From: a virus
Strand: one strand, 5' to 3'
Length of the DNA: 39,149 bases
IMG/VR virus record: IMGVR_UViG_3300047172_000023
Span: 1-39,149 of that record
Shown here: one piece after another, positions 8,028 to 16,952 of the stretch
Numbering within the stretch: the first letter of the stretch is position 1
Layout of the letters: each line of letters opens with the position of its first letter
Position numbers and translations under genes: made by a program
The notes under the pieces: model-generated
The model's input: only the letters and a program-made list of their open reading frames with translations
What the model was told of the DNA's origin: nothing
The model's database searches: none

Positions 8028-10001
8028 ATGACGGGGCGTTTGACTACATCACTTGAGCAGTTCAACAAGTTCGTGAGCTCTATAGCTTCGGACAGCGTGG
8101 TAGCAGCAGACGTTGAAACATACAAGACACGCCCCACCCACCCAAACTCACACCTCCTCGGCCTGGCTCTTAGCGGATTCAGCACCGCCGGGGAGGTAGT
8201 GAGTACTTACATTCCTTTCATGCATTACAACAAGTTAGAGCAGCGATTTGTTGCTATCTATACACAGCTAGATTCTGTTGCTAGCTTTATAAAGCAAAGA
8301 CAAATAGTTGGATGGAATGTGCCTTTTGATAAGGCCTGGATTGACCACTATTTTAATATTAATACGAATTGGCTTGCAGATGGACGCATCTTATGGCATC
8401 TTCAGAATAACGACTACACCATTCGCGGATACGGATTAAAACTGGCCCAGAAGAAACTGTTGGGCTGGGAGGACACGAATGAAAAAGCTCTTGAAGAGAA
8501 CGTTAAGATGGCCGGAGGGCGACTTAAAGACGGCGACCACTATTTGGCTGACTTGGACGTCCTATCACATTACGCGGCTCTTGATACGTATAGTACTTTA
8601 AAGGCTTACTTACAACTTAAGCCTTTTATGGATAAACACGACTACTGGTGGTTTGCTAAGGAAATCCTTGATTACTCGATAATGCTTAGTCAAGCTTCTG
8701 AAGAAGGGTTGCTCGTAGACGTACCGGAGCTTATGAGAGCGGCGGCCCTGTATAAGCATAAGCGCGAGTCGGCCGAACAGCTAATAAATAGAGTTTGCAG
8801 TGAAGAGATTGGTGCGATGCAAGAGGCGTGGAAGACGGCCAAGTTGGCCAAGTACAAGACCGTGCGAGGACGGGTTAACTTCCTAGAAAAACAGCGGCTG
8901 CAAAAGAAGTTTAATCCCGCCTCCGGCCACCAACGCGCCCTCTTGTTGCACGATGTACTAGCTCTACCGGTAGGGGAGCGAACCCCAACTGGTTTGCCTA
9001 AAACTGACCGTGCCAACTTGTCAACACTCAAGCATGACGTGGCTGGCTCGATGGTACAATTCTCGGAGTATAAAAAGATATATGAAGCTACGCAAACGTA
9101 CCTCCAGCATGTTGAAGACGATGGTAGGATACATACTAATTACGATGTTTGTGGCACTGTCAGTGGCCGTCTTTCAGGATTTAAACCCTCAGTGCTCAAT
9201 ATGCCGTTTTCTGAACCCGAGGTGATGCGTGCGTTTATCCCCAATGAAGGTTATATTGGTATTCATGCTGACTTGGCTGCTATTGAACCTTGTGTCCTGG
9301 CTCATTACAGTGAAGACCCCACACTTCTAAAAGTCTACAAATACGGGCAGGGCGACATCTACCTGGACCTCGCCCTTGACATCTTCCCAGAGAACCAAGG
9401 TTTACGACAGGAATACAATCCTAATGAGAAAGTCACGAGCCAAATCAAAGAGAAATACAAAGATTTGCGAGCGCTGTGCAAGATTGTTCACCTCGCTGTC
9501 TCTTATACAGGTACCCACGTTACTGTCGCTAAGAACCTTTCTAAAGCTGGATTCCCAACCGATAAAGGGAAAGCTATGCAATTGGTCGGACGCTACTGGA
9601 AGAAGTTTTCTCAAGTCAAAGCATTTAATCATAGAATCCAAGAAGTTTACCGACATCGTGGGTTTATTAGAAATCTCGTTGGAAGGGTCATCCAAGTGCC
9701 TGACATTTTTGAGAAGGATTTAATGAACCGACTTGTGCAATCCTCGGCACATGATATACTGAGGTTGTGGGTACGAGAGATTGTTAGTGAATTTAAAACG
9801 AAAGGTGTTGATTGGCACCATTGGCTTCCGGACCTTCACGATTCTACAACCTTTATGGTGAAGGAGTCACAGAAGGACTTAGCAGCCGAGGTATACACTA
9901 CCACTCTCAATAGGGTTAAGGATATGATTAATCTTTCTGTACCTCTTAATATGGAAATGAAATTCATGAAAACTCTAGCAGGAGTGAAAGTTAATGAATA
10001 A
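8028..10001 (+). CDS. Family A DNA polymerase with 3'-5' exonuclease domain
   Basis: Exo motifs VAADVETY, WNVPFDKAWI and YAALDTY. Pol motif A is IHADLAAIEP, motif B is RALCKIVHLAVSYTG and motif C is LPDLHDST. Confidence 0.9.
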   Translation: MTGRLTTSLEQFNKFVSSIASDSVVAADVETYKTRPTHPNSHLLGLALSGFSTAGEVVSTYIPFMHYNKLEQRFVAIYTQLDSVASFIKQRQIVGWNVPFDKAWIDHYFNINTNWLADGRILWHLQNNDYTIRGYGLKLAQKKLLGWEDTNEKALEENVKMAGGRLKDGDHYLADLDVLSHYAALDTYSTLKAYLQLKPFMDKHDYWWFAKEILDYSIMLSQASEEGLLVDVPELMRAAALYKHKRESAEQLINRVCSEEIGAMQEAWKTAKLAKYKTVRGRVNFLEKQRLQKKFNPASGHQRALLLHDVLALPVGERTPTGLPKTDRANLSTLKHDVAGSMVQFSEYKKIYEATQTYLQHVEDDGRIHTNYDVCGTVSGRLSGFKPSVLNMPFSEPEVMRAFIPNEGYIGIHADLAAIEPCVLAHYSEDPTLLKVYKYGQGDIYLDLALDIFPENQGLRQEYNPNEKVTSQIKEKYKDLRALCKIVHLAVSYTGTHVTVAKNLSKAGFPTDKGKAMQLVGRYWKKFSQVKAFNHRIQEVYRHRGFIRNLVGRVIQVPDIFEKDLMNRLVQSSAHDILRLWVREIVSEFKTKGVDWHHWLPDLHDSTTFMVKESQKDLAAEVYTTTLNRVKDMINLSVPLNMEMKFMKTLAGVKVNE

Positions 10002-11895: not shown

Positions 11896-12085
11896 CTGGA
11901 AGATGGGATTCAAGGTCACCCGCTCTCTCTCAGCAGCCCTTCGCCATATCTTTAAGTTCTTGGCTGGCCAAACGGTTGATGAGGAGAGCGGTCTCTCGCA
12001 TCTGTTCCATGCTGTGGCGTGTCTTGAACATGCAATTTATGATATGAAGCACAACCCTTCTAACGACGATAGGTACAAATCATGA
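11756..12085 (+). CDS. Conserved phage protein resembling the dATP/dGTP diphosphohydrolase N-terminal (DUF5664-like) family
   Basis: KYDAGKPDLS...FGEQKYARDNW...ALRHIFKFLAG...DEESGLSHLFHAVACLEH matches my recollection of that family. AAGGA lies 7 nt before the ATG. Confidence 0.5.
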   Translation: MKNQEKKPKVALKYDAGKPDLSQVTLELVEGLARVRMFGEQKYARDNWKMGFKVTRSLSAALRHIFKFLAGQTVDEESGLSHLFHAVACLEHAIYDMKHNPSNDDRYKS

Positions 12086-12540
12086 CCTTAATCTTCTTAG
12101 ATATCGATGGAACATGCGCTGATTCCTCTAAAAGGTTTCTAAGGGCGGGGCATGAGCCTAAGACTCGTGGCCCGGCCTATACGAAATGGCTGAACAAGGT
12201 ACAGGACCGCCGCTCCTTATTGAAAGACCTACCAGTTAGAGGCATGCCTGAATTGGCTATGATGATGAGAGATAACTTAATATACCTAACAGCCCGAAGT
12301 GAGATTTATAGAGAAGTTACTAAGCAATGGCTGACTGAGAATATGTTTCCTGAGGCGCAGCTGTTGATGCGCCCCAAGCGTAATACGGAGCAGGCTGGGG
12401 AGCTTAAAGAACGTATCATTTTATCTATTGTGGACCCTGAAGATGATGTTATAGTAATAGATGATGACTATAATGAAGAATTGGAAGTAGTTTGTAAACG
12501 TAATCACTGGACCCTACTTAAAGCAAGGAGCGGCTCATGA
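12082..12540 (+). CDS. HAD-superfamily phosphatase (nucleotidase/phosphatase-like)
   Basis: Motif I is FLDIDGT and motif II is YLTARS. Lys is in ELKERI. Motif IV is VIDDD. ATGA coupling. Confidence 0.7.
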   Translation: MTLIFLDIDGTCADSSKRFLRAGHEPKTRGPAYTKWLNKVQDRRSLLKDLPVRGMPELAMMMRDNLIYLTARSEIYREVTKQWLTENMFPEAQLLMRPKRNTEQAGELKERIILSIVDPEDDVIVIDDDYNEELEVVCKRNHWTLLKARSGS

Positions 12541-14022: not shown

Positions 14023-14378
14023 GACAAGTGGACGTGTCTTCTACGGATTTCATTAGAGGGGCGGCCTGGACATCAGATACTCCTGTAGATGTTGTGACTG
14101 TCTATGAAATTATTACTCCCTATGCTAAGTACTTGGGAATAGATAGTACAACCTTTACTAAAGTAAAAGGTAACGTGCAGTACTACTGGACCTCTCCGGA
14201 CGAAACCTATACAGGTAGAGCCTATATTCGTATGTTGTACTTATACGACTACGCAGACAAACATGACATTGAACAACAGTTGCAGCCCGCTCTTGTAACT
14301 ACTCGGCAAGTGTACCTCCCAAGGTTTGGTGAGAAAGAATGGTGTTCTACTAACAAGGTGACGAAAGCTTTCAGTTGA
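14019..14378 (+). CDS. Hypothetical protein (119 aa)
   Basis: ATG ORF with no motif recognised. Confidence 0.5.
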   Translation: MRQVDVSSTDFIRGAAWTSDTPVDVVTVYEIITPYAKYLGIDSTTFTKVKGNVQYYWTSPDETYTGRAYIRMLYLYDYADKHDIEQQLQPALVTTRQVYLPRFGEKEWCSTNKVTKAFS

Positions 14379-14403
14379 CAAGGGCTACAAAAGGGTGTAG
14401 ATT
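14375..14403 (+). promoter_or_regulatory. Sigma70-like promoter TTGACA-N17-TAGATT, 6 nt before ATG 14410
   Basis: Reads TTGACAagggctacaaaagggtgTAGATTgaaagtATG. Confidence 0.55.
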
Positions 14404-14409
14404 GAAAGT

Positions 14410-14877
14410 ATGAAACAGCTTATATTAATAGCTTTACTGCTACCAACCACAGCATTTGCACGCAATCAACAAGAAGTGGTTGAAAAGGTTCGCATTATTA
14501 ACGCAATCCGCTGGGCCGCTCATTATGTGGGCGTGCCGGAAGACCTTATGGTAGCAGTAGCCTGGGTAGAGTCGTCTCATCGCGCTAACCTCCCCGCAAA
14601 GCTCGACGGCTCTACCCCCTCCTACGGGGTGTTCCAGATTAAGCTGGAGACTGCTCAGTGGGTGGACAAGGTCTACAAGCATAAGAAGTTGGCTACAAGA
14701 GGGCGGCTCCTATCCGTGGATGACAACTGTGTGTACGCGGCTAAGTATATGAAGTTGTTACTTAAACGATACGACGGCAGCTGGAAGATGGCCGTGGATG
14801 CCTATAATAAGGGGCACGTCGTCAGCTTAAATAGCCAGTATGTTCAACGGGTTAGCAAGGCATTGGGGGTTAAATGA
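14410..14877 (+). CDS. Lytic transglycosylase (SLT domain) with N-terminal signal peptide
   Basis: The signal is MKQLILIALLLPTTAFA. The catalytic Glu is in AWVESSH. YGVFQI and AYNKG are SLT family motifs. Confidence 0.85.
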   Translation: MKQLILIALLLPTTAFARNQQEVVEKVRIINAIRWAAHYVGVPEDLMVAVAWVESSHRANLPAKLDGSTPSYGVFQIKLETAQWVDKVYKHKKLATRGRLLSVDDNCVYAAKYMKLLLKRYDGSWKMAVDAYNKGHVVSLNSQYVQRVSKALGVK

Positions 14878-15101
14878 ACCTATTACTCTTGAAGATTAGC
14901 AGAACGGTAGAGACGCCACCCCCAGCCCCCCGCTCCTTCATGGAACACAGGGTTGATGAGATAAGGTACCTCTCTAATAGCCTCTATTACGCGTTTAAAG
15001 GGGCCGCCACGCGTTTGGTTGCGGTACCCCGCTACCTACCTACCAGGACATGGGTAGTTATAGCTTTGTTAGGAGGGTTTATAGGTTTATTACTAGTTTA
15101 G
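14874..15101 (+). CDS. Tail-anchored membrane protein (75 aa)
   Basis: ATGA coupling to the SLT gene. The C-terminal TM is WVVIALLGGFIGLLLV. Confidence 0.5.
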   Translation: MNLLLLKISRTVETPPPAPRSFMEHRVDEIRYLSNSLYYAFKGAATRLVAVPRYLPTRTWVVIALLGGFIGLLLV

Positions 15102-15217
15102 CTGCCGGCAGCGTGGAAGGACACGCAGGTGACGACCCCGAGAGCCTGGAAGGGGAAATACACACCTAAGGCGGAGGTTAGTTACCTCGAGCGGGAATCA
15201 AGCCCGGCCCGGCAGCT
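15100..15217 (+). ncRNA. Structured RNA candidate 1: expanded cloverleaf closed by a 9-bp helix
   Basis: The closing helix pairs AGCTGCCGG (15100-15108) with CCGGCAGCT (15209-15217). Internal hairpins are 15111-15126, 15127-15167 (two-tier), 15174-15188 and 15192-15206 (7-nt loop). No ORF. Confidence 0.4.
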
Positions 15218-15344
15218 CTAGTCCTCGGGGCTAGCAATCAAGGTGAATGCGCCGCACTATAAGGGTACGTAACCAATAATGCGAAGAGTTACATACAAAC
15301 GTATGTAATGAGCCCAGTTCGATTCTGGGGCCCCGAGGACTGGA
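15217..15344 (+). ncRNA. Structured RNA candidate 2: tRNA-like RNA (acceptor, D and T arms present; no normal anticodon loop)
   Basis: A 15-bp closing helix pairs 15217-15231 with 15330-15344. The T arm CCCAG-TTCGATT-CTGGG (15313-15329) abuts the 3' acceptor strand GCCCCGA, which pairs with TCGGGGC (15225-15231). TA sits at positions 8-9 and the D arm is GCA-ATCAAGGTGAA-TGC. The stem CCGCA/TGCGA encloses 23 nt. An 8-bp hairpin TTACATAC-AAAC-GTATGTAA occupies the variable-arm position. Confidence 0.5.
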
Positions 15345-15369
15345 TTTATAAAGTGGAAATGAGGAAGAA

Positions 15370-15750
15370 ATGAAGAAGCAATGGAAATGTCTCAATTGTA
15401 AAAGAACTGAACTCACCTGGATAACGGGAGGTCCTTCTCCTTGTAGATATTGTATTGAACTAGTTTCTATGTACACACTACAAAAACGCATGACCACTCA
15501 ATCCCACAACCCCCCTGATTGGTCCCCCTACCCACCAGATTTGATGTCACAAAATATTACTACAAATCGTGACAAGCATTCTCACATTGGAGCGATAACT
15601 CTTTTCCCTGTCAACAGGGATGACGCGGCAGGCGCCCTTGATAATCCCTCACCGTTTATTGATGAACCCGTGTGTGAGTGCGGAGCTGATAAAGCTGGAA
15701 CCGGTGGGCATTCATTTTGGTGTGCAAAGTATGTCGACCCCTCTAAATAA
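15370..15750 (+). CDS. Zinc-ribbon protein (126 aa)
   Basis: The GAGGAAG RBS precedes the start. CLNC-x14-CRYC lies at the N-terminus and CECG...H..WC at the C-terminus. Confidence 0.6.
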   Translation: MKKQWKCLNCKRTELTWITGGPSPCRYCIELVSMYTLQKRMTTQSHNPPDWSPYPPDLMSQNITTNRDKHSHIGAITLFPVNRDDAAGALDNPSPFIDEPVCECGADKAGTGGHSFWCAKYVDPSK

Positions 15751-15769: not shown

Positions 15770-15798
15770 TTGACATCCCCTTAAAACTAGCGTAGATT
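15770..15798 (+). promoter_or_regulatory. Sigma70-like promoter TTGACA-N17-TAGATT
   Basis: Reads TTGACAtccccttaaaactagcgTAGATT in the 68-nt gap. It is followed by AAGGAGG and ATG 15819. Confidence 0.6.
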
Positions 15799-16333: not shown

Positions 16334-16431
16334 CGTGCGAGGAGGAGTATCAGGCATGGCTAGAAGGCCCAGAGCGGGCTGGATTGACATTGCTAGAGAT
16401 AGAGAGTATCTTGGATACTAGGAGAGGTTAG
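16216..16431 (+). CDS. Cys-rich small protein (71 aa)
   Basis: Track ORF trimmed to the ATG at 16216, which has a GAGAGGA RBS. MPCQNCNCGRQ... with an acidic helical C-terminus. Confidence 0.45.
   Translation: MPCQNCNCGRQSKKLENGDLQQAAGEAKKERPPLSLREVTCEEEYQAWLEGPERAGLTLLEIESILDTRRG
16384..16412 (+). promoter_or_regulatory. Sigma70-like promoter TTGACA-N17-TATCTT (inside the preceding CDS)
   Basis: Reads TTGACAttgctagagatagagagTATCTT. It is followed by AGGAGAGG and ATG 16433. Confidence 0.4.
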
Positions 16432-16618: not shown

Positions 16619-16952
16619 TAAAGGTGCCGCCCCAGGTAAGTTTGGGGTCATTCAAGGTGGCAAATAGCCCGCGAAACCAGGGGGCGTCGAAAGATGCCCC
16701 TCCACTCAAAGTTAACCTAAACCAATCCACTGCAGCATTATAGTTGTGAGGAGACTCACCAAAGTGGGCTTTACTGGCTCCTTTGGCGAAGTCTGCCTCC
16801 TGGTCTGCCCTGCCACGACCACATTGGCTTATGTGAGCTTCTGTGTGTTGTTGTCTAAAGGAGAGCGCCCACTCTAGTAAGTAGGGTTGTGGAGTTTGAT
16901 ACTTGTGGAGTATGTCAATACAGGCTTGACATAATGAACTATTTACATGCAT
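16527..16952 (-). CDS. M15-family zinc peptidase (T5-endolysin/VanY-like), putative endolysin
   Basis: GRGRADQEADFAKGASKAHFGESPHNYNAAVD follows G-x-R-x3-Q...S-x-H-x2-G/A-A-x-D. LTWGGTF..LHDLPHIEW follows WGG...D-x-P-H-x-E. Confidence 0.75.
   Translation of the reverse strand: MHVNSSLCQACIDILHKYQTPQPYLLEWALSFRQQHTEAHISQCGRGRADQEADFAKGASKAHFGESPHNYNAAVDWFRLTLSGGASFDAPWFRGLFATLNDPKLTWGGTFTTLHDLPHIEWRQWREDAQTGLLRLVEESE

What the first reader, a model, noticed from the sequence alone, without database searches (positions are those of the whole stretch)
15100..15344. Two back-to-back tRNA-like structured RNAs in the only large gene-free gap of the plus-strand operon
A 268-nt stretch has no credible ORF in an otherwise overlapping-gene operon.

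Element 2:
- It has a textbook T arm (CCCAG-TTCGATT-CTGGG).
- That arm directly abuts a 7-nt acceptor strand that pairs 100 nt upstream.
- It has a U8-like T and a D arm with GG.
- The acceptor helix continues to 15 bp.
- The anticodon position is a helix enclosing 23 nt rather than a 7-nt loop.
- The variable position carries a perfect 8-bp hairpin.
- The cloverleaf core is 113 nt and lacks CCA.

Element 1 starts in the upstream stop codon. It has the same five-helix topology: a 9-bp closing helix, a D-like hairpin, a two-tier long arm, a V-like hairpin and a T-like hairpin with a 7-nt loop. It lacks the TTC consensus.

This architecture recalls stable tRNA-like RNAs such as T4 species 1/2 RNAs and bacterial YrlA (Y-RNA-like) RNAs rather than decoding tRNAs. 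I know of no described equivalent in small podoviruses.
Basis: partly seen in the sequence, partly recalled or inferred. Interest (0 to 1): 0.75.

Follow-up and report, generated by a model that had tools for sequence, protein, structure and literature searches.

The report
Two tRNA-shaped phage RNAs in tandem
The gene-free gap holds two real structured RNAs: one belongs to a widespread tRNA-shaped phage RNA family that I could not find described, and the other is a phage tRNA-Asn gene remodelled so that it can no longer decode.

Summary
Window 15100-15344 folds into two abutting multi-branch domains (z = -5.8 against shuffles), and no credible ORF lies there.

**Element 1 (15100-15217)** is not a one-off. 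I collected 29 distinct homologues plus one more in the cultured Acidovorax phage AP1.
- They come from related podophage contigs, unrelated IMG/VR viral contigs at 33-69% GC, and one MAG contig.
- All share a closing helix P1, a 2-nt spacer, an invariant D-like arm (GCGUGG...GACACGC-A), a variable middle domain, and a 5-bp T-like stem with an 8-nt loop that abuts the P1 3' strand.
- P1 and the T-like stem covary strongly: 99.4% of cells paired, 107 double-sided changes, 0 of 500 shuffles as high.
- Rfam 15 has no match, and no paper in the searched library contains the core sequences.

**Element 2 (15217-15344)** is homologous to a genuine tRNA-Asn(GUU) that follows element 1 in a relative.
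- The D arm (27 nt) and T loop are identical, and the stem differences are compensatory.
- The 7-nt anticodon loop is replaced by a 31-nt arm.
- A 9-bp hairpin sits in the variable loop.
- The acceptor helix is extended to 15 bp.

Function is inferred only. The most likely role is as non-decoding tRNA mimics cut out of the operon transcript.

The parts
15100..15217 (+). Element 1 (E1): a 118-nt member of a conserved tRNA-shaped phage RNA family.
   Evidence: Fold z = -3.8. Homologues found by nhmmer, regex and pattern scans. Covariation on 9 full-length copies and on 29 spliced cores.
15100..15108 (+). E1 P1 5' strand (AGCUGCCGG). It pairs with 15209-15217 and begins inside the TAG stop codon of ORF 14874-15101.
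   Evidence: Parser output. In the 9-copy alignment all 10 P1 pairs show double-sided changes. In the 29-member spliced core all 6 P1 pairs retained do.
15109..15127 (+). E1 spacer CA, then the D-like arm GCGUG-GAAGGA-CACGC, then A. This is the sequence-invariant core of the family.
   Evidence: GCGUGG and GACACGCA are invariant in 29 of 29 members. The spacer is CG in 28 members and CA here.
15136..15155 (+). E1 hairpin P3 (CCCC / GGGG) with a 12-nt loop.
   Evidence: In six subgroup members, 3 of 4 pairs covary and 100% of cells are paired.
15144..15172 (+). E1 pseudoknot: GCCU in the P3 loop (15144-15147) pairs with AGGC (15169-15172).
   Evidence: 3 of 4 pairs covary (GCCU/AGGC, CCCU/AGGG, UCCU/AGGA, CACU/AGUG, GCAU/AUGC). 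100% of cells are paired, and slid controls give 19-52%. The segments were chosen by eye and n = 6.
15174..15188 (+). E1 anticodon-like hairpin GAGG-UUAGUUA-CCUC.
   Evidence: The stem covaries in relatives (CCAAG/CUUGG, CCGGG/CCCGG, CCGUU/AACGG). The loops carry AGU, GGU or UGU. In 5 relatives the hairpin is part of a nested relic cloverleaf. Read by eye.
15191..15208 (+). E1 T-like arm. In the family register it reads GCGGG-AAUCAAGC-CCGGC with one G.G mismatch. The alternative register is CGGG-AAUCAAG-CCCG. It abuts the P1 3' strand with no spacer.
   Evidence: All 5 stem pairs covary across 29 members. The loop is AAUCAAGC or AGUCGCG[CAU].
15209..15217 (+). E1 P1 3' strand (CCGGCAGCU). U15217 is shared with the first pair of the E2 closing helix.
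15217..15344 (+). Element 2 (E2): a 128-nt tRNA-Asn-derived, non-decoding tRNA-like RNA.
   Evidence: Fold z = -7.4. nhmmer and MAFFT alignment to the L006 tRNA-Asn(GUU). That relative scores 46.6 bits on Rfam tRNA. E2 gives no Rfam or default ARAGORN call.
15217..15231 (+). E2 closing helix, 5' strand. It pairs with 15330-15344 (15 bp, one G.U). The tRNA-homologous acceptor is 15225-15231 with 15330-15336.
   Evidence: The 2-71 pair is C-G here and G-C in L006, a compensatory change.
15232..15251 (+). E2 U8 A9, the D arm (GCA-AUCAAGGUGAA-UGC) and G26.
   Evidence: Lies within a 27-nt run that is identical to the L006 tRNA.
15252..15284 (+). E2 arm at the anticodon position. The stem CGCA/UGCG encloses 23 nt, which fold into a further 3+3 bp and a 5-nt loop. 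There is no 7-nt anticodon loop.
   Evidence: It is 16 nt longer than the L006 anticodon arm, and three stem pairs changed on both sides relative to L006 (read by eye).
15288..15309 (+). E2 hairpin inserted in the variable loop (GUUACAUAC-AAAC-GUAUGUAAU).
   Evidence: Absent from the L006 tRNA. Unique in the window and in all fetched loci.
15313..15329 (+). E2 T arm CCCAG-UUCGAUU-CUGGG.
   Evidence: The T loop is identical to L006. Pairs 49-65 and 51-63 changed on both sides.
14375..14403 (+). Promoter-like site TTGACA-N17-TAGATT. It probably starts the transcription unit SLT - orf75 - E1 - E2 - orf126. The next such site is at 15770.
   Evidence: Consensus scan only. No promoter-like site on the + strand lies between it and E1.

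Best explanation
**Shown**
- The gap encodes two tRNA-shaped RNAs on the + strand. No + strand promoter-like site lies between the site at 14375 and E1, so they are probably co-transcribed with the flanking genes (consensus scan only).
- E1 belongs to a phage RNA family that I found in no database or paper. Its constant parts reproduce the geometry of the tRNA acceptor, D and T arms:
  - a closing helix of 6-20 bp;
  - a 2-nt spacer;
  - an invariant D-like arm;
  - a 5-bp T-like stem that abuts the 3' strand of the closing helix.
- The position of the anticodon arm in E1 holds a variable domain. In this window that domain is a small pseudoknot plus an anticodon-like hairpin.
- E2 descends from the tRNA-Asn(GUU) gene that follows E1 in a relative.
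  - It kept the acceptor, D and T arms under selection.
  - It lost the anticodon loop.
  - It gained a variable-arm hairpin.
  - Its ends are sealed in a 15-bp helix, which resembles E1 members with a long P1.

**Inferred**
- Both modules fold into L-shaped tRNA-like bodies.
- Host tRNA-processing nucleases (RNase P at the 5' side, 3' trimming enzymes) or RNase III on the long helices excise them from the mRNA.
- They persist as stable small RNAs that act in trans as tRNA mimics or decoys.
- Their target would be a host factor that reads the tRNA elbow and acceptor stack and is conserved across many bacterial phyla. Candidates are tRNA-targeting defence nucleases, tRNA-modifying or aminoacylation enzymes, RNase P and the ribosome.
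- The variable middle domain would supply specificity. In this subgroup it carries a threonine-type NGU loop.
For: **The structure is real**
- z-scores are -5.8, -3.8 and -7.4.

**E1 is a conserved family**
- 9 full-length copies: 98.2% of cells paired, 15 of 20 pairs with double-sided changes, 0 of 500 shuffles as high, slid controls about 30-36%.
- 29 distinct members, spliced cores: 99.4% paired, 107 double-sided cells, 0 of 500 shuffles.
- Pseudoknot and P3 in the window's subgroup: 100% paired, 6 of 8 pairs covary.
- The same core motifs persist in contexts of 33-69% GC.
- P1 contains 10 G.U pairs, which fits RNA read from this strand.
- About 10 of 35 distinct PolA-group loci of 10 kb or more carry a copy, at different genomic positions.
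- No protein family is recurrently adjacent to E1 outside that phage group, which argues for a host partner.

**E1 has tRNA-like geometry and keeps tRNA company**
- The spacer is 2 nt, and the 5-bp T-like stem abuts the P1 3' strand directly (one alternative, probably spurious, parse differed).
- E1 sits between tRNA-Met and tRNA-Thr in L250/255/260, and before tRNA-Asn in L006.

**E2 is tRNA-derived and still constrained**
- 27 nt are identical to L006 across the D arm, and the T loop is identical.
- Changes at pairs 2-71, 49-65 and 51-63, and at three anticodon-stem pairs, are compensatory. PolA in the two phages is only 62% identical.
- ARAGORN calls E2 a tRNA only after the variable-loop hairpin is deleted in silico, alone or together with trimming the anticodon-position loop to 7 nt.

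**No match to anything described**
- Rfam gives no family on E1 in 22 E1-bearing sequences: the window and 21 loci.
- No paper in the library contains the core sequences.
Against: **No evidence on expression or function**
- Nothing here shows expression, processing or stability.
- The decoy or mimic function is pure inference.

**Departures from a canonical tRNA elbow**
- E1's D-like and T-like loops (GAAGGA; AAUCAAGC, 8 nt) differ from the canonical G18G19 / T-Psi-C elbow. An elbow is plausible but unproven.
- The perfect 29 of 29 correlation between a D-loop base and the T-loop type may only reflect two clades.

**Processing is uncertain**
- P1 length varies from 6 to 20 bp and no CCA is encoded. 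A uniform RNase P or CCA pathway is therefore not evident.
- 10 of 13 subtype-B members are followed by a U-run. That fits stand-alone terminated sRNA genes rather than excision from an mRNA.

**E2-specific features are untested**
- The 15-bp helix, the long arm and the variable-loop hairpin occur only in this phage, in identical contigs. Covariation cannot test them.

**Alignment caveat**
- The spliced alignments were fitted to the proposed structure.
Confidence: 0.55

Rival explanations
1. Both elements act only in cis. They are tRNA-like 'punctuation' marks that direct RNase P, RNase III or RNase E cleavage of the polycistronic transcript, or they protect the upstream mRNA's 3' end. The excised RNA itself has no role.
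For: - E1 and E2 lie inside an operon with no promoter of their own.
- E1's P1 starts in the upstream stop codon.
- In relatives E1 sits at gene-block boundaries, often followed by a U-run or a promoter-like TTGACA.
- The long closing helix stacked on the 5-bp T stem gives 20 bp or more, which is RNase III-like. From general knowledge, RNase P cleaves tRNA-like structures in mRNAs.
Against: - A processing signal would not need an invariant 16-nt D-like arm and an 8-nt loop kept across 33-69% GC and unrelated phages.
- An ordinary tRNA or hairpin would do the job.
- Only about 30% of related phages carry it, at varying sites, and one carries two tandem copies of different subtypes.
- The elaborate variable domain, with a conserved pseudoknot, would be unexplained.
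Confidence: 0.2
2. E2 is simply a recently inactivated tRNA-Asn pseudogene, disrupted by two small insertions, and has no function. Only E1 is functional.
For: - E2 has a single known homologue, and that homologue is a normal tRNA.
- The E2-specific features exist only in this phage.
- E2 fails both tRNA detectors.
- Most related phages carry no tRNA at all.
Against: - All differences from L006 in the acceptor, T and anticodon stems keep base pairing: six pairs changed on both sides and none was disrupted.
- The D arm and T loop are unchanged, although PolA identity is only 62%.
- The added segments form near-perfect helices, and the leader and trailer became fully complementary (8 of 8 against 5 of 8 in L006).
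- z = -7.4.
- These features point to selection for a closed, stable fold rather than decay.
Confidence: 0.2
3. E1 is a riboswitch-like or attenuator cis-regulator. Its P1, stabilised by a ligand or by a tRNA-binding factor, would control termination or translation of the downstream gene.
For: - The invariant core could be a binding pocket.
- 10 of 13 subtype-B members have a U-run directly after P1.
- Several copies sit immediately upstream of the PolA gene.
- Riboswitches with a tRNA-like fold are known, for example yjdF (PMC9142559, listed).
Against: - Downstream genes are unrelated across members: PolA, SLT, tRNAs, unknown ORFs.
- In the window E1 is followed by E2, not by an expression platform.
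- Some copies lie inside tRNA clusters.
- There is no alternative terminator/antiterminator pairing, and subtype A mostly lacks the U-run.
Confidence: 0.05
4. The conservation acts on DNA rather than RNA, for example a replication origin, a recombination or attachment site derived from a tRNA gene, or a protein-binding palindrome.
For: - From general knowledge, phage attachment sites often copy tRNA 3' halves.
- The element moves between genomic positions.
Against: - Covariation preserves base pairing, not sequence. It includes G.U pairs that would be A.C mismatches on the other strand.
- In the PolA phage group every copy is co-oriented with the PolA operon.
- No integrase was found in the window ORFs scanned.
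- Multi-branch architecture with a pseudoknot is typical of RNA.
Confidence: 0.02

Closest known systems
Canonical bacterial/phage tRNA (Rfam RF00005), specifically the phage tRNA-Asn(GUU) of relative L006
   Same: - E2 shares the acceptor, U8 A9, D arm, T arm and T loop UUCGAUU with it, and even the leader and trailer are homologous.
- E1 shares the order and spacing of the acceptor-like, D-like and T-like helices.
   Different: - E2 has no 7-nt anticodon loop, carries a 9-bp variable-arm hairpin and a 15-bp sealed acceptor, and encodes no CCA. It gets no Rfam or default ARAGORN call.
- E1 lacks the UUC and GG loop consensus. It has an 8-nt T-like loop, a P1 of variable length, and a 50-140 nt domain in place of the anticodon arm.
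Bacterial Y RNAs: YrlA, and D. radiodurans Yrn1 (Chen et al. 2014, PMC4201824)
   Same: - These are non-decoding RNAs with a tRNA-like D/T module attached to a long terminal helix.
- Some are phage-encoded, and two RNAs can be processed from one precursor.
- Yrn1 has the order stem - D - AC-like arm - T - stem, like E1.
   Different: - YrlA has a permuted order, with the T arm before the D arm and an acceptor-like hairpin between them.
- YrlA lies next to a Ro60/rsr gene and carries a GNCGAAN0-1G motif in the stem.
- Here there is no TROVE protein in the scanned ORFs, P1 has no conserved sequence, and Rfam gives no hit.
tmRNA tRNA-like domain
   Same: An acceptor/T-arm stack with the anticodon arm replaced by a large inserted domain that contains pseudoknots.
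   Different: - There is no CCA, no G3.U70, no tag reading frame and no ARAGORN tmRNA call.
- E1 has a full and invariant D-like stem, which tmRNA lacks (my own knowledge).
T4 species 1 and 2 RNAs (rnaC, rnaD) and other stable phage RNAs co-transcribed with tRNAs
   Same: These are small stable RNAs of unknown function encoded beside phage tRNA genes and matured with them (my own knowledge). E1 likewise lies in or beside tRNA clusters in some phages.
   Different: - No sequence comparison was possible with these tools.
- E1 gave no blastn match to T4-like records in the phage collection.
tRNA-like processing handles and engineered tRNA scaffolds: MALAT1 mascRNA, MHV68 tRNA-miRNA transcripts, the Ponchon-Dardel tRNA scaffold
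   Same: In each, a tRNA-shaped body gives processing and stability while a different RNA occupies or follows the anticodon-arm position. This is the design logic proposed here for E1 and E2.
   Different: Those are eukaryotic, viral-eukaryotic or artificial, and they use canonical D and T loops. This comparison rests on my own knowledge and was not tested.

Membership tests
Decoding tRNA (RF00005) | Passes tRNA detectors (covariance model or ARAGORN at normal thresholds). | tested here: not met
   - ARAGORN finds 0 genes in the window.
- Rfam gives no hit at the gathering score, nor at E <= 10 on 14900-15500.
- Only a forced low-score ARAGORN run gives 'tRNA-Arg with a 21-nt intron'.
- As positive controls, the tRNAs of relatives L006 and L008 score 46.6 and 32.7 bits.
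Decoding tRNA (RF00005) | 5-bp anticodon stem closed by a 7-nt loop with U33 and a purine at position 37. | tested here: not met
   E2 has a 4-bp stem enclosing 23 nt that fold further into a 5-nt loop. E1 has only an anticodon-like hairpin (UUAGUUA) inside a larger domain.
Decoding tRNA (RF00005) | 7-bp acceptor, U8, D arm with GG, and T arm with a UUCRANY loop abutting the acceptor 3' strand. | tested here: met
   Met for E2. After in-silico removal of the two inserts ARAGORN calls E2 a tRNA. For E1 only the geometry is met, not the loop sequences.
Decoding tRNA (RF00005) | Homology to a genuine tRNA gene. | tested here: met
   E2 aligns with the L006 tRNA-Asn(GUU): nhmmer E = 3e-6, and 27 nt are identical across the D arm.
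YrlA-type bacterial Y RNA | Encoded next to a Ro60/Rsr (TROVE) gene. | tested here: not met
   Pfam and PHROGs scans of all 27 window ORFs of 150 aa or more, plus six shorter ones, found no TROVE domain. No protein family recurs next to E1 in other contigs.
YrlA-type bacterial Y RNA | Permuted module order (stem - V - T - acceptor-like hairpin - D - stem) and a GNCGAAN0-1G motif in the stem (PMC4201824). | tested here: not met
   E1 and E2 have the tRNA order, with D before T, and the terminal helix takes the acceptor position. P1 has no conserved sequence.
YrlA-type bacterial Y RNA | Match to the Rfam covariance model. | tested here: not met
   No Rfam match of any family on E1 or E2 at E <= 10, nor on 21 E1-bearing loci at the gathering score.
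tmRNA | tRNA-Ala-like acceptor with CCA, a tag reading frame, and detection by ARAGORN or Rfam. | tested here: not met
   ARAGORN in tmRNA mode finds none, even at lowered score. Rfam finds none.
E1 family (defined here) | P1 helix, 2-nt spacer, GCGUGG...GACACGC-A arm, variable domain, 5-bp stem with an 8-nt loop A[AG]U[CA][AG][AC][GA]N, then the P1 3' strand with no spacer. | tested here: met
   The window copy fits, with spacer CA instead of CG and one G.G mismatch, or a 7-nt-loop register, in the T-like stem.
Self-cleaving ribozymes / riboswitches in Rfam | Match to any curated model. | tested here: not met
   The only E <= 10 hits were chance-level (CRISPR-DR31, Plastid-ycf2, sR035), far below their gathering scores.
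Stable processed small RNA (any kind) | A discrete transcript with defined ends accumulates in infected cells. | not testable with these tools
   No expression data are available. It needs RNA-seq or a Northern blot.

The most novel reading that the evidence does not exclude
E1 defines a widespread and so far undescribed class of phage RNAs: natural 'tRNA scaffolds'. A non-canonical but strictly conserved elbow/acceptor frame docks onto a universal bacterial machine that handles tRNA. The anticodon-arm position carries exchangeable cargo, which in this subgroup is a threonine-type anticodon arm. E2 captures the same transition in progress, as a working phage tRNA-Asn being converted into such a sealed, anticodon-less mimic. 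If true, phages would be repeatedly evolving tRNA genes into decoys or effectors against tRNA-directed host processes.
Probability: 0.3. Interest if true: 0.85.

Novelty: new variant of a known kind. Interest (0 to 1): 0.7.

Why it matters
**What is already known.** tRNA mimicry by non-coding RNAs is established (tmRNA, Y RNAs, viral TLS). Phage tRNAs have recently been tied to escape from tRNA-cleaving defence systems.

**What is new here.**
- A compact RNA family with very strong covariation, absent from Rfam 15, spans phages of very different GC content.
- It keeps a tRNA-like frame while swapping its central domain.

**What follows.**
- It would add a new class of phage small RNA.
- One member lies in a cultured phage-host pair (Acidovorax phage AP1 on Paracidovorax oryzae), so it can be tested experimentally.
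- Together with E2, it offers a rare view of how a decoding tRNA becomes a non-decoding mimic.
- In practice, such elements are missed by tRNA finders and left as 'gaps' in phage annotation.

Tried and rejected
**Searches that found nothing or added nothing**
- Rfam at the gathering score and at E <= 10: only noise.
- blastn of the 3-kb region against 50,697 phage records: no match.
- IMG/VR search with the two flanking proteins and an exact E2 pattern: nothing.
- Homologues of the flanking 126-aa ORF: none.
- The exact-protein look-up returned only an identical 1.4-kb contig, which is uninformative.
The rows returned yielded no copy with the strict upstream GGCGTGG filter. A looser parser later recognised two of those loci, L076 and L161, as E1 copies that duplicate L202 and L025.
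- The genome contigs pattern scan gave 23 hits, about the chance level. Only one was a true member.
- Five further relatives fetched through PolA had no E1 or E2.
- Literature searches by sequence and by topic found no description. One possibly relevant 2026 preprint could not be opened. The supplement of the 10,006-csRNA paper is not held.

**Models that could not be used for searching**
- Model R1, built on the spliced core, cannot search genomic DNA because the variable domains are cut out.

**Readings considered and rejected**
- E2 as an intron-containing tRNA: there is no bulge-helix-bulge, the host is bacterial (SLT lysin, sigma-70-like promoters), and no trimming of the 23-nt loop to 7 nt recreated the ancestral Asn GUU anticodon (AAU, AUU or AUA only).
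- E1 as a hammerhead: the GAUGA...GAA resemblance is not conserved across members and Rfam gives no hit.
- A k-turn in P2: the strand register does not fit.
- A protein recurrently adjacent to E1: none.
Full report
**Context**

The window is a roughly 39-kb phage genome. It carries the following:
- a family-A DNA polymerase (8028-10001)
- a PD-(D/E)XK nuclease
- an HNH endonuclease
- a HAD/PNKP-phosphatase-like protein
- an SLT lytic transglycosylase (14410-14877)
- a large terminase
- an SU10/P22-like portal, adaptor and capsid module

The best cultured match to the large terminase is only 27% identical, so the lineage is uncultured. Promoter-like TTGACA-N17-TAGATT sites lie at 14375, 15770 and 16384. 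The finding therefore sits inside the unit SLT - orf75 (14874-15101) - gap - orf126 (15370-15750).

**Checking the observation**

ORFs of 25 aa or more overlapping the gap are three short ones of 28-39 aa and an 88-aa minus-strand GTG ORF that overlaps the next gene.

Folding 15095-15350 gives two abutting multi-branch domains, with MFE -112.7 kcal/mol and z = -5.82. Folded alone, E1 (15100-15217) has z = -3.8 and E2 (15217-15344) has z = -7.4. ARAGORN at default settings finds nothing. Rfam 15 gives nothing at gathering scores and only chance-level hits at E <= 10. Only a forced low-threshold ARAGORN run calls E2 a 'tRNA-Arg with a 21-nt intron'.

**Finding relatives**

The flanking small ORFs have no homologues, and IMG/VR held no close relative. 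The DNA polymerase has many relatives at 38-71% identity on contigs of 36-41 kb. I fetched their neighbourhoods by exact-protein look-up. I also used a polymerase alignment against metagenome and viral contigs. Gene order is conserved.

**E2 is a remodelled tRNA-Asn**

In relative L006 (PolA 62% identical), nhmmer with the window elements hits 16702-16914 (E = 3e-15). ARAGORN and Rfam call a genuine tRNA-Asn(GUU) there, at 46.6 bits. It follows an E1 homologue directly, as E2 follows E1 in the window.

The pairwise alignment shows:
- 27 consecutive identical bases across the acceptor end, U8 A9, D arm and G26.
- An identical T loop (UUCGAUU) and identical 3' variable-loop bases.
- Homologous leader and trailer sequences.
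- Differences in the acceptor (2-71), T stem (49-65, 51-63) and anticodon stem (three pairs) are all changes on both sides that keep pairing. None disrupts a pair.
- E2 is 38 nt longer. Sixteen of these turn the 17-nt anticodon arm into a 31-nt arm without a 7-nt loop. Twenty-two form a 9-bp hairpin in the variable loop.
- Leader and trailer have become fully complementary (8 of 8, against 5 of 8 in L006), which gives the 15-bp closing helix.

When the variable-loop hairpin is deleted in silico, alone or together with trimming the anticodon-position loop to 7 nt, ARAGORN calls E2 a tRNA. The hairpin and the long arm are unique to this phage among all fetched DNA. Their own helices therefore cannot be tested by covariation. 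The pattern of change argues for continued selection on a closed, stable tRNA-like fold rather than free decay, but that is inference.

**E1 is a member of a conserved family**

- nhmmer and a simple motif search (GCGTGG ... GACACGC) found E1 homologues in nine further places in the polymerase-related loci. One phage (L005) has two tandem copies.
- Two-motif pattern scans of IMG/VR returned 12 and 14 loci. Nearly all parse as family members.
- The same scan of 596 Gb of genomes gave one true member, on a 2-kb phage-like contig binned with a Cytophagales MAG. The other 22 hits were at chance level.
- blastn against GenBank phages found one member in an unannotated gap of the cultured Acidovorax phage AP1.

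The 29 distinct members analysed, and the AP1 copy, share the following, in order:
- P1 of 6-20 bp
- a 2-nt spacer (CG; CA in the window)
- GCGUG G..., then an optional insert of up to about 160 nt, then ...GA CACGC
- an A
- a variable middle domain of 52-139 nt
- a 5-bp stem with an 8-nt loop, AAUCAAGC or AGUCGCG[CAU]
- the P1 3' strand with no spacer

Covariation counts:

| Alignment | Cells paired | Pairs with double-sided change | Shuffles as high | Slid controls |
|---|---|---|---|---|
| 9 full-length copies (MAFFT) | 98.2% | 15 of 20 | 0 of 500 | 29-36% paired |
| 29 spliced cores | 99.4% | 11 of 16 (107 cells) | 0 of 500 | 30-39% paired |

The D-like stem never varies, apart from one G.U pair. 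The base before GACACGC is G whenever the loop is AAUCAAGC, and A whenever it is AGUCGCG-type, in 29 of 29 members. This is either a tertiary contact between the two loops or simply two clades.

Other family properties:
- The core is kept in genomic contexts of 33-69% GC.
- Ten G.U pairs in P1 fit an RNA read from this strand.
- Within the polymerase group, about 10 of 35 distinct loci of 10 kb or more carry E1, at different sites: upstream of PolA, before or after SLT, and elsewhere.
- No protein family is recurrently adjacent outside that group.
- E1 lies between tRNA-Met and tRNA-Thr genes in one IMG/VR lineage.
- Rfam finds nothing on E1 in 21 E1-bearing loci.
- No paper in the library contains the core sequences.

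**The window copy's middle domain**

The MFE 'long arm' is not supported by relatives. In the subgroup formed by the window, L005a, L035, L076/L202, L195 and L198, three features are supported:
- A 4-bp hairpin P3, at window 15136-39 with 15152-55.
- A 4-bp pseudoknot between the P3 loop and a downstream ANNN, at window 15144-47 GCCU with 15169-72 AGGC.
- These two helices are 100% paired, and 6 of 8 pairs covary. The caveats are n = 6 and segments chosen by eye.
- An anticodon-like hairpin follows, at window 15174-88 (GAGG-UUAGUUA-CCUC).

In five relatives this hairpin is part of a nested relic cloverleaf (UA-GCUC...GAGU, a 5-bp stem, degenerate T arm). That cloverleaf resembles the tRNA found in relative L008. 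The loops carry AGU, GGU or UGU, all threonine-type triplets (read by eye). Outside this subgroup the middle domains share no sequence.

**Interpretation**

Shown:
- There are two tRNA-shaped RNAs.
- E1 belongs to a strongly covarying, widespread family that I could not find described.
- E2 derives from a tRNA-Asn gene and is non-decoding.

Inferred:
- The constant acceptor/D/T-like frame forms an L-shaped body.
- Host tRNA-processing or dsRNA nucleases excise it from the operon transcript.
- It acts in trans as a tRNA mimic on a host factor conserved across phyla.
- The variable domain supplies specificity.

Points against a purely cis processing role:
- The family keeps invariant loops regardless of GC content.
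- No viral protein is consistently adjacent.
- It associates with tRNA genes.
- E2 has converged on the same sealed architecture.

A cis role still cannot be excluded (0.2). It also remains possible that E2 is a young pseudogene (0.2).

**Comparison with known families**

- E2 fails the defining tests of a decoding tRNA but meets the homology test.
- Neither element meets the YrlA criteria. These are a neighbouring Ro60 gene, permuted arm order, a stem motif (PMC4201824) and an Rfam model hit.
- Neither element meets the tmRNA criteria.
- The nearest functional analogies are Yrn1-type Y RNAs, the tmRNA tRNA-like domain, T4 species 1/2 RNAs, and natural or engineered tRNA scaffolds. The last two rest on my own knowledge and were not tested.

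**Verdict**

The finding is real and more interesting than a stray pseudo-tRNA. It is a new family-level variant of tRNA mimicry in phages, with a cultured representative available for experiments. Its function is still unknown.

Noticed in passing
L262 2487-2620 (= OM049504.1 4321-4454, minus strand): The cultured Acidovorax phage AP1 (host Paracidovorax oryzae) carries an E1 family member in an unannotated intergenic gap. Its P1 is 14 bp and the core motifs are identical. This gives a tractable experimental system.
   Followed up: partly
L005 16292-16511 and 16519-16696: One relative carries two tandem E1 copies of the two different subtypes (AAUCAAGC type, then AGUCGCAC type) and no tRNA.
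   Followed up: partly
L003 17286-17619: The closest relative (PolA 71% identical) has neither E1 nor E2. The gap after its SLT gene reads as a Cys-rich, HNH-motif (endonuclease VII-like) ORF by eye, which suggests that this site is a hotspot for accessory or mobile inserts.
   Followed up: no
L008 11970-12046: A tRNA (Rfam 32.7 bits, anticodon loop AUGGUAU = GGU, Thr-type) sits after SLT plus a small ORF, at the same relative site as E1+E2 in the window. The same phage has an E1 copy 3 kb further on (14992-15158).
   Followed up: partly
window 14375-14403, 15770-15798, 16384-16412: Promoter-like TTGACA-N17-TAGATT/TATCTT sites recur on the + strand at gene-block starts. Similar TTGACA boxes follow E1 or the tRNA in L005, L006 and L008.
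   Followed up: no
spliced core alignment A5 (29 members), column 17 against columns 32, 35, 36: There is a perfect two-state correlation between the base preceding GACACGC (G or A) and the T-like loop type (AAUCAAGC or AGUCGCG-). It may be a D-loop/T-loop tertiary contact or just two clades.
   Followed up: partly
E1 members of subtype B (e.g. L234, L240, L241, L243, L057): 10 of 13 subtype-B members have 4 or more T in the 8 nt after P1, against 3 of 16 for subtype A. These copies may be stand-alone terminated sRNA genes.
   Followed up: partly
window 12082-12540 (+): A 152-aa HAD/PNKP-phosphatase-like protein (PHROG 'polynucleotide kinase') is conserved across the phage group, near a dGTP-diphosphohydrolase-like gene in relatives. 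No RNA ligase was seen. Any link to RNA end-healing is untested.
   Followed up: no
window 15231-15497 (-): An 88-aa GTG ORF on the minus strand overlaps E2 and the start of orf126. It is probably spurious.
   Followed up: no
L250 8003-8623 / L260 6320-6940: In a GC-rich (about 69%) IMG/VR phage lineage, E1 with a 16-bp P1 lies between tRNA-Met(CAU) and tRNA-Thr(UGU) genes on the same strand.
   Followed up: partly
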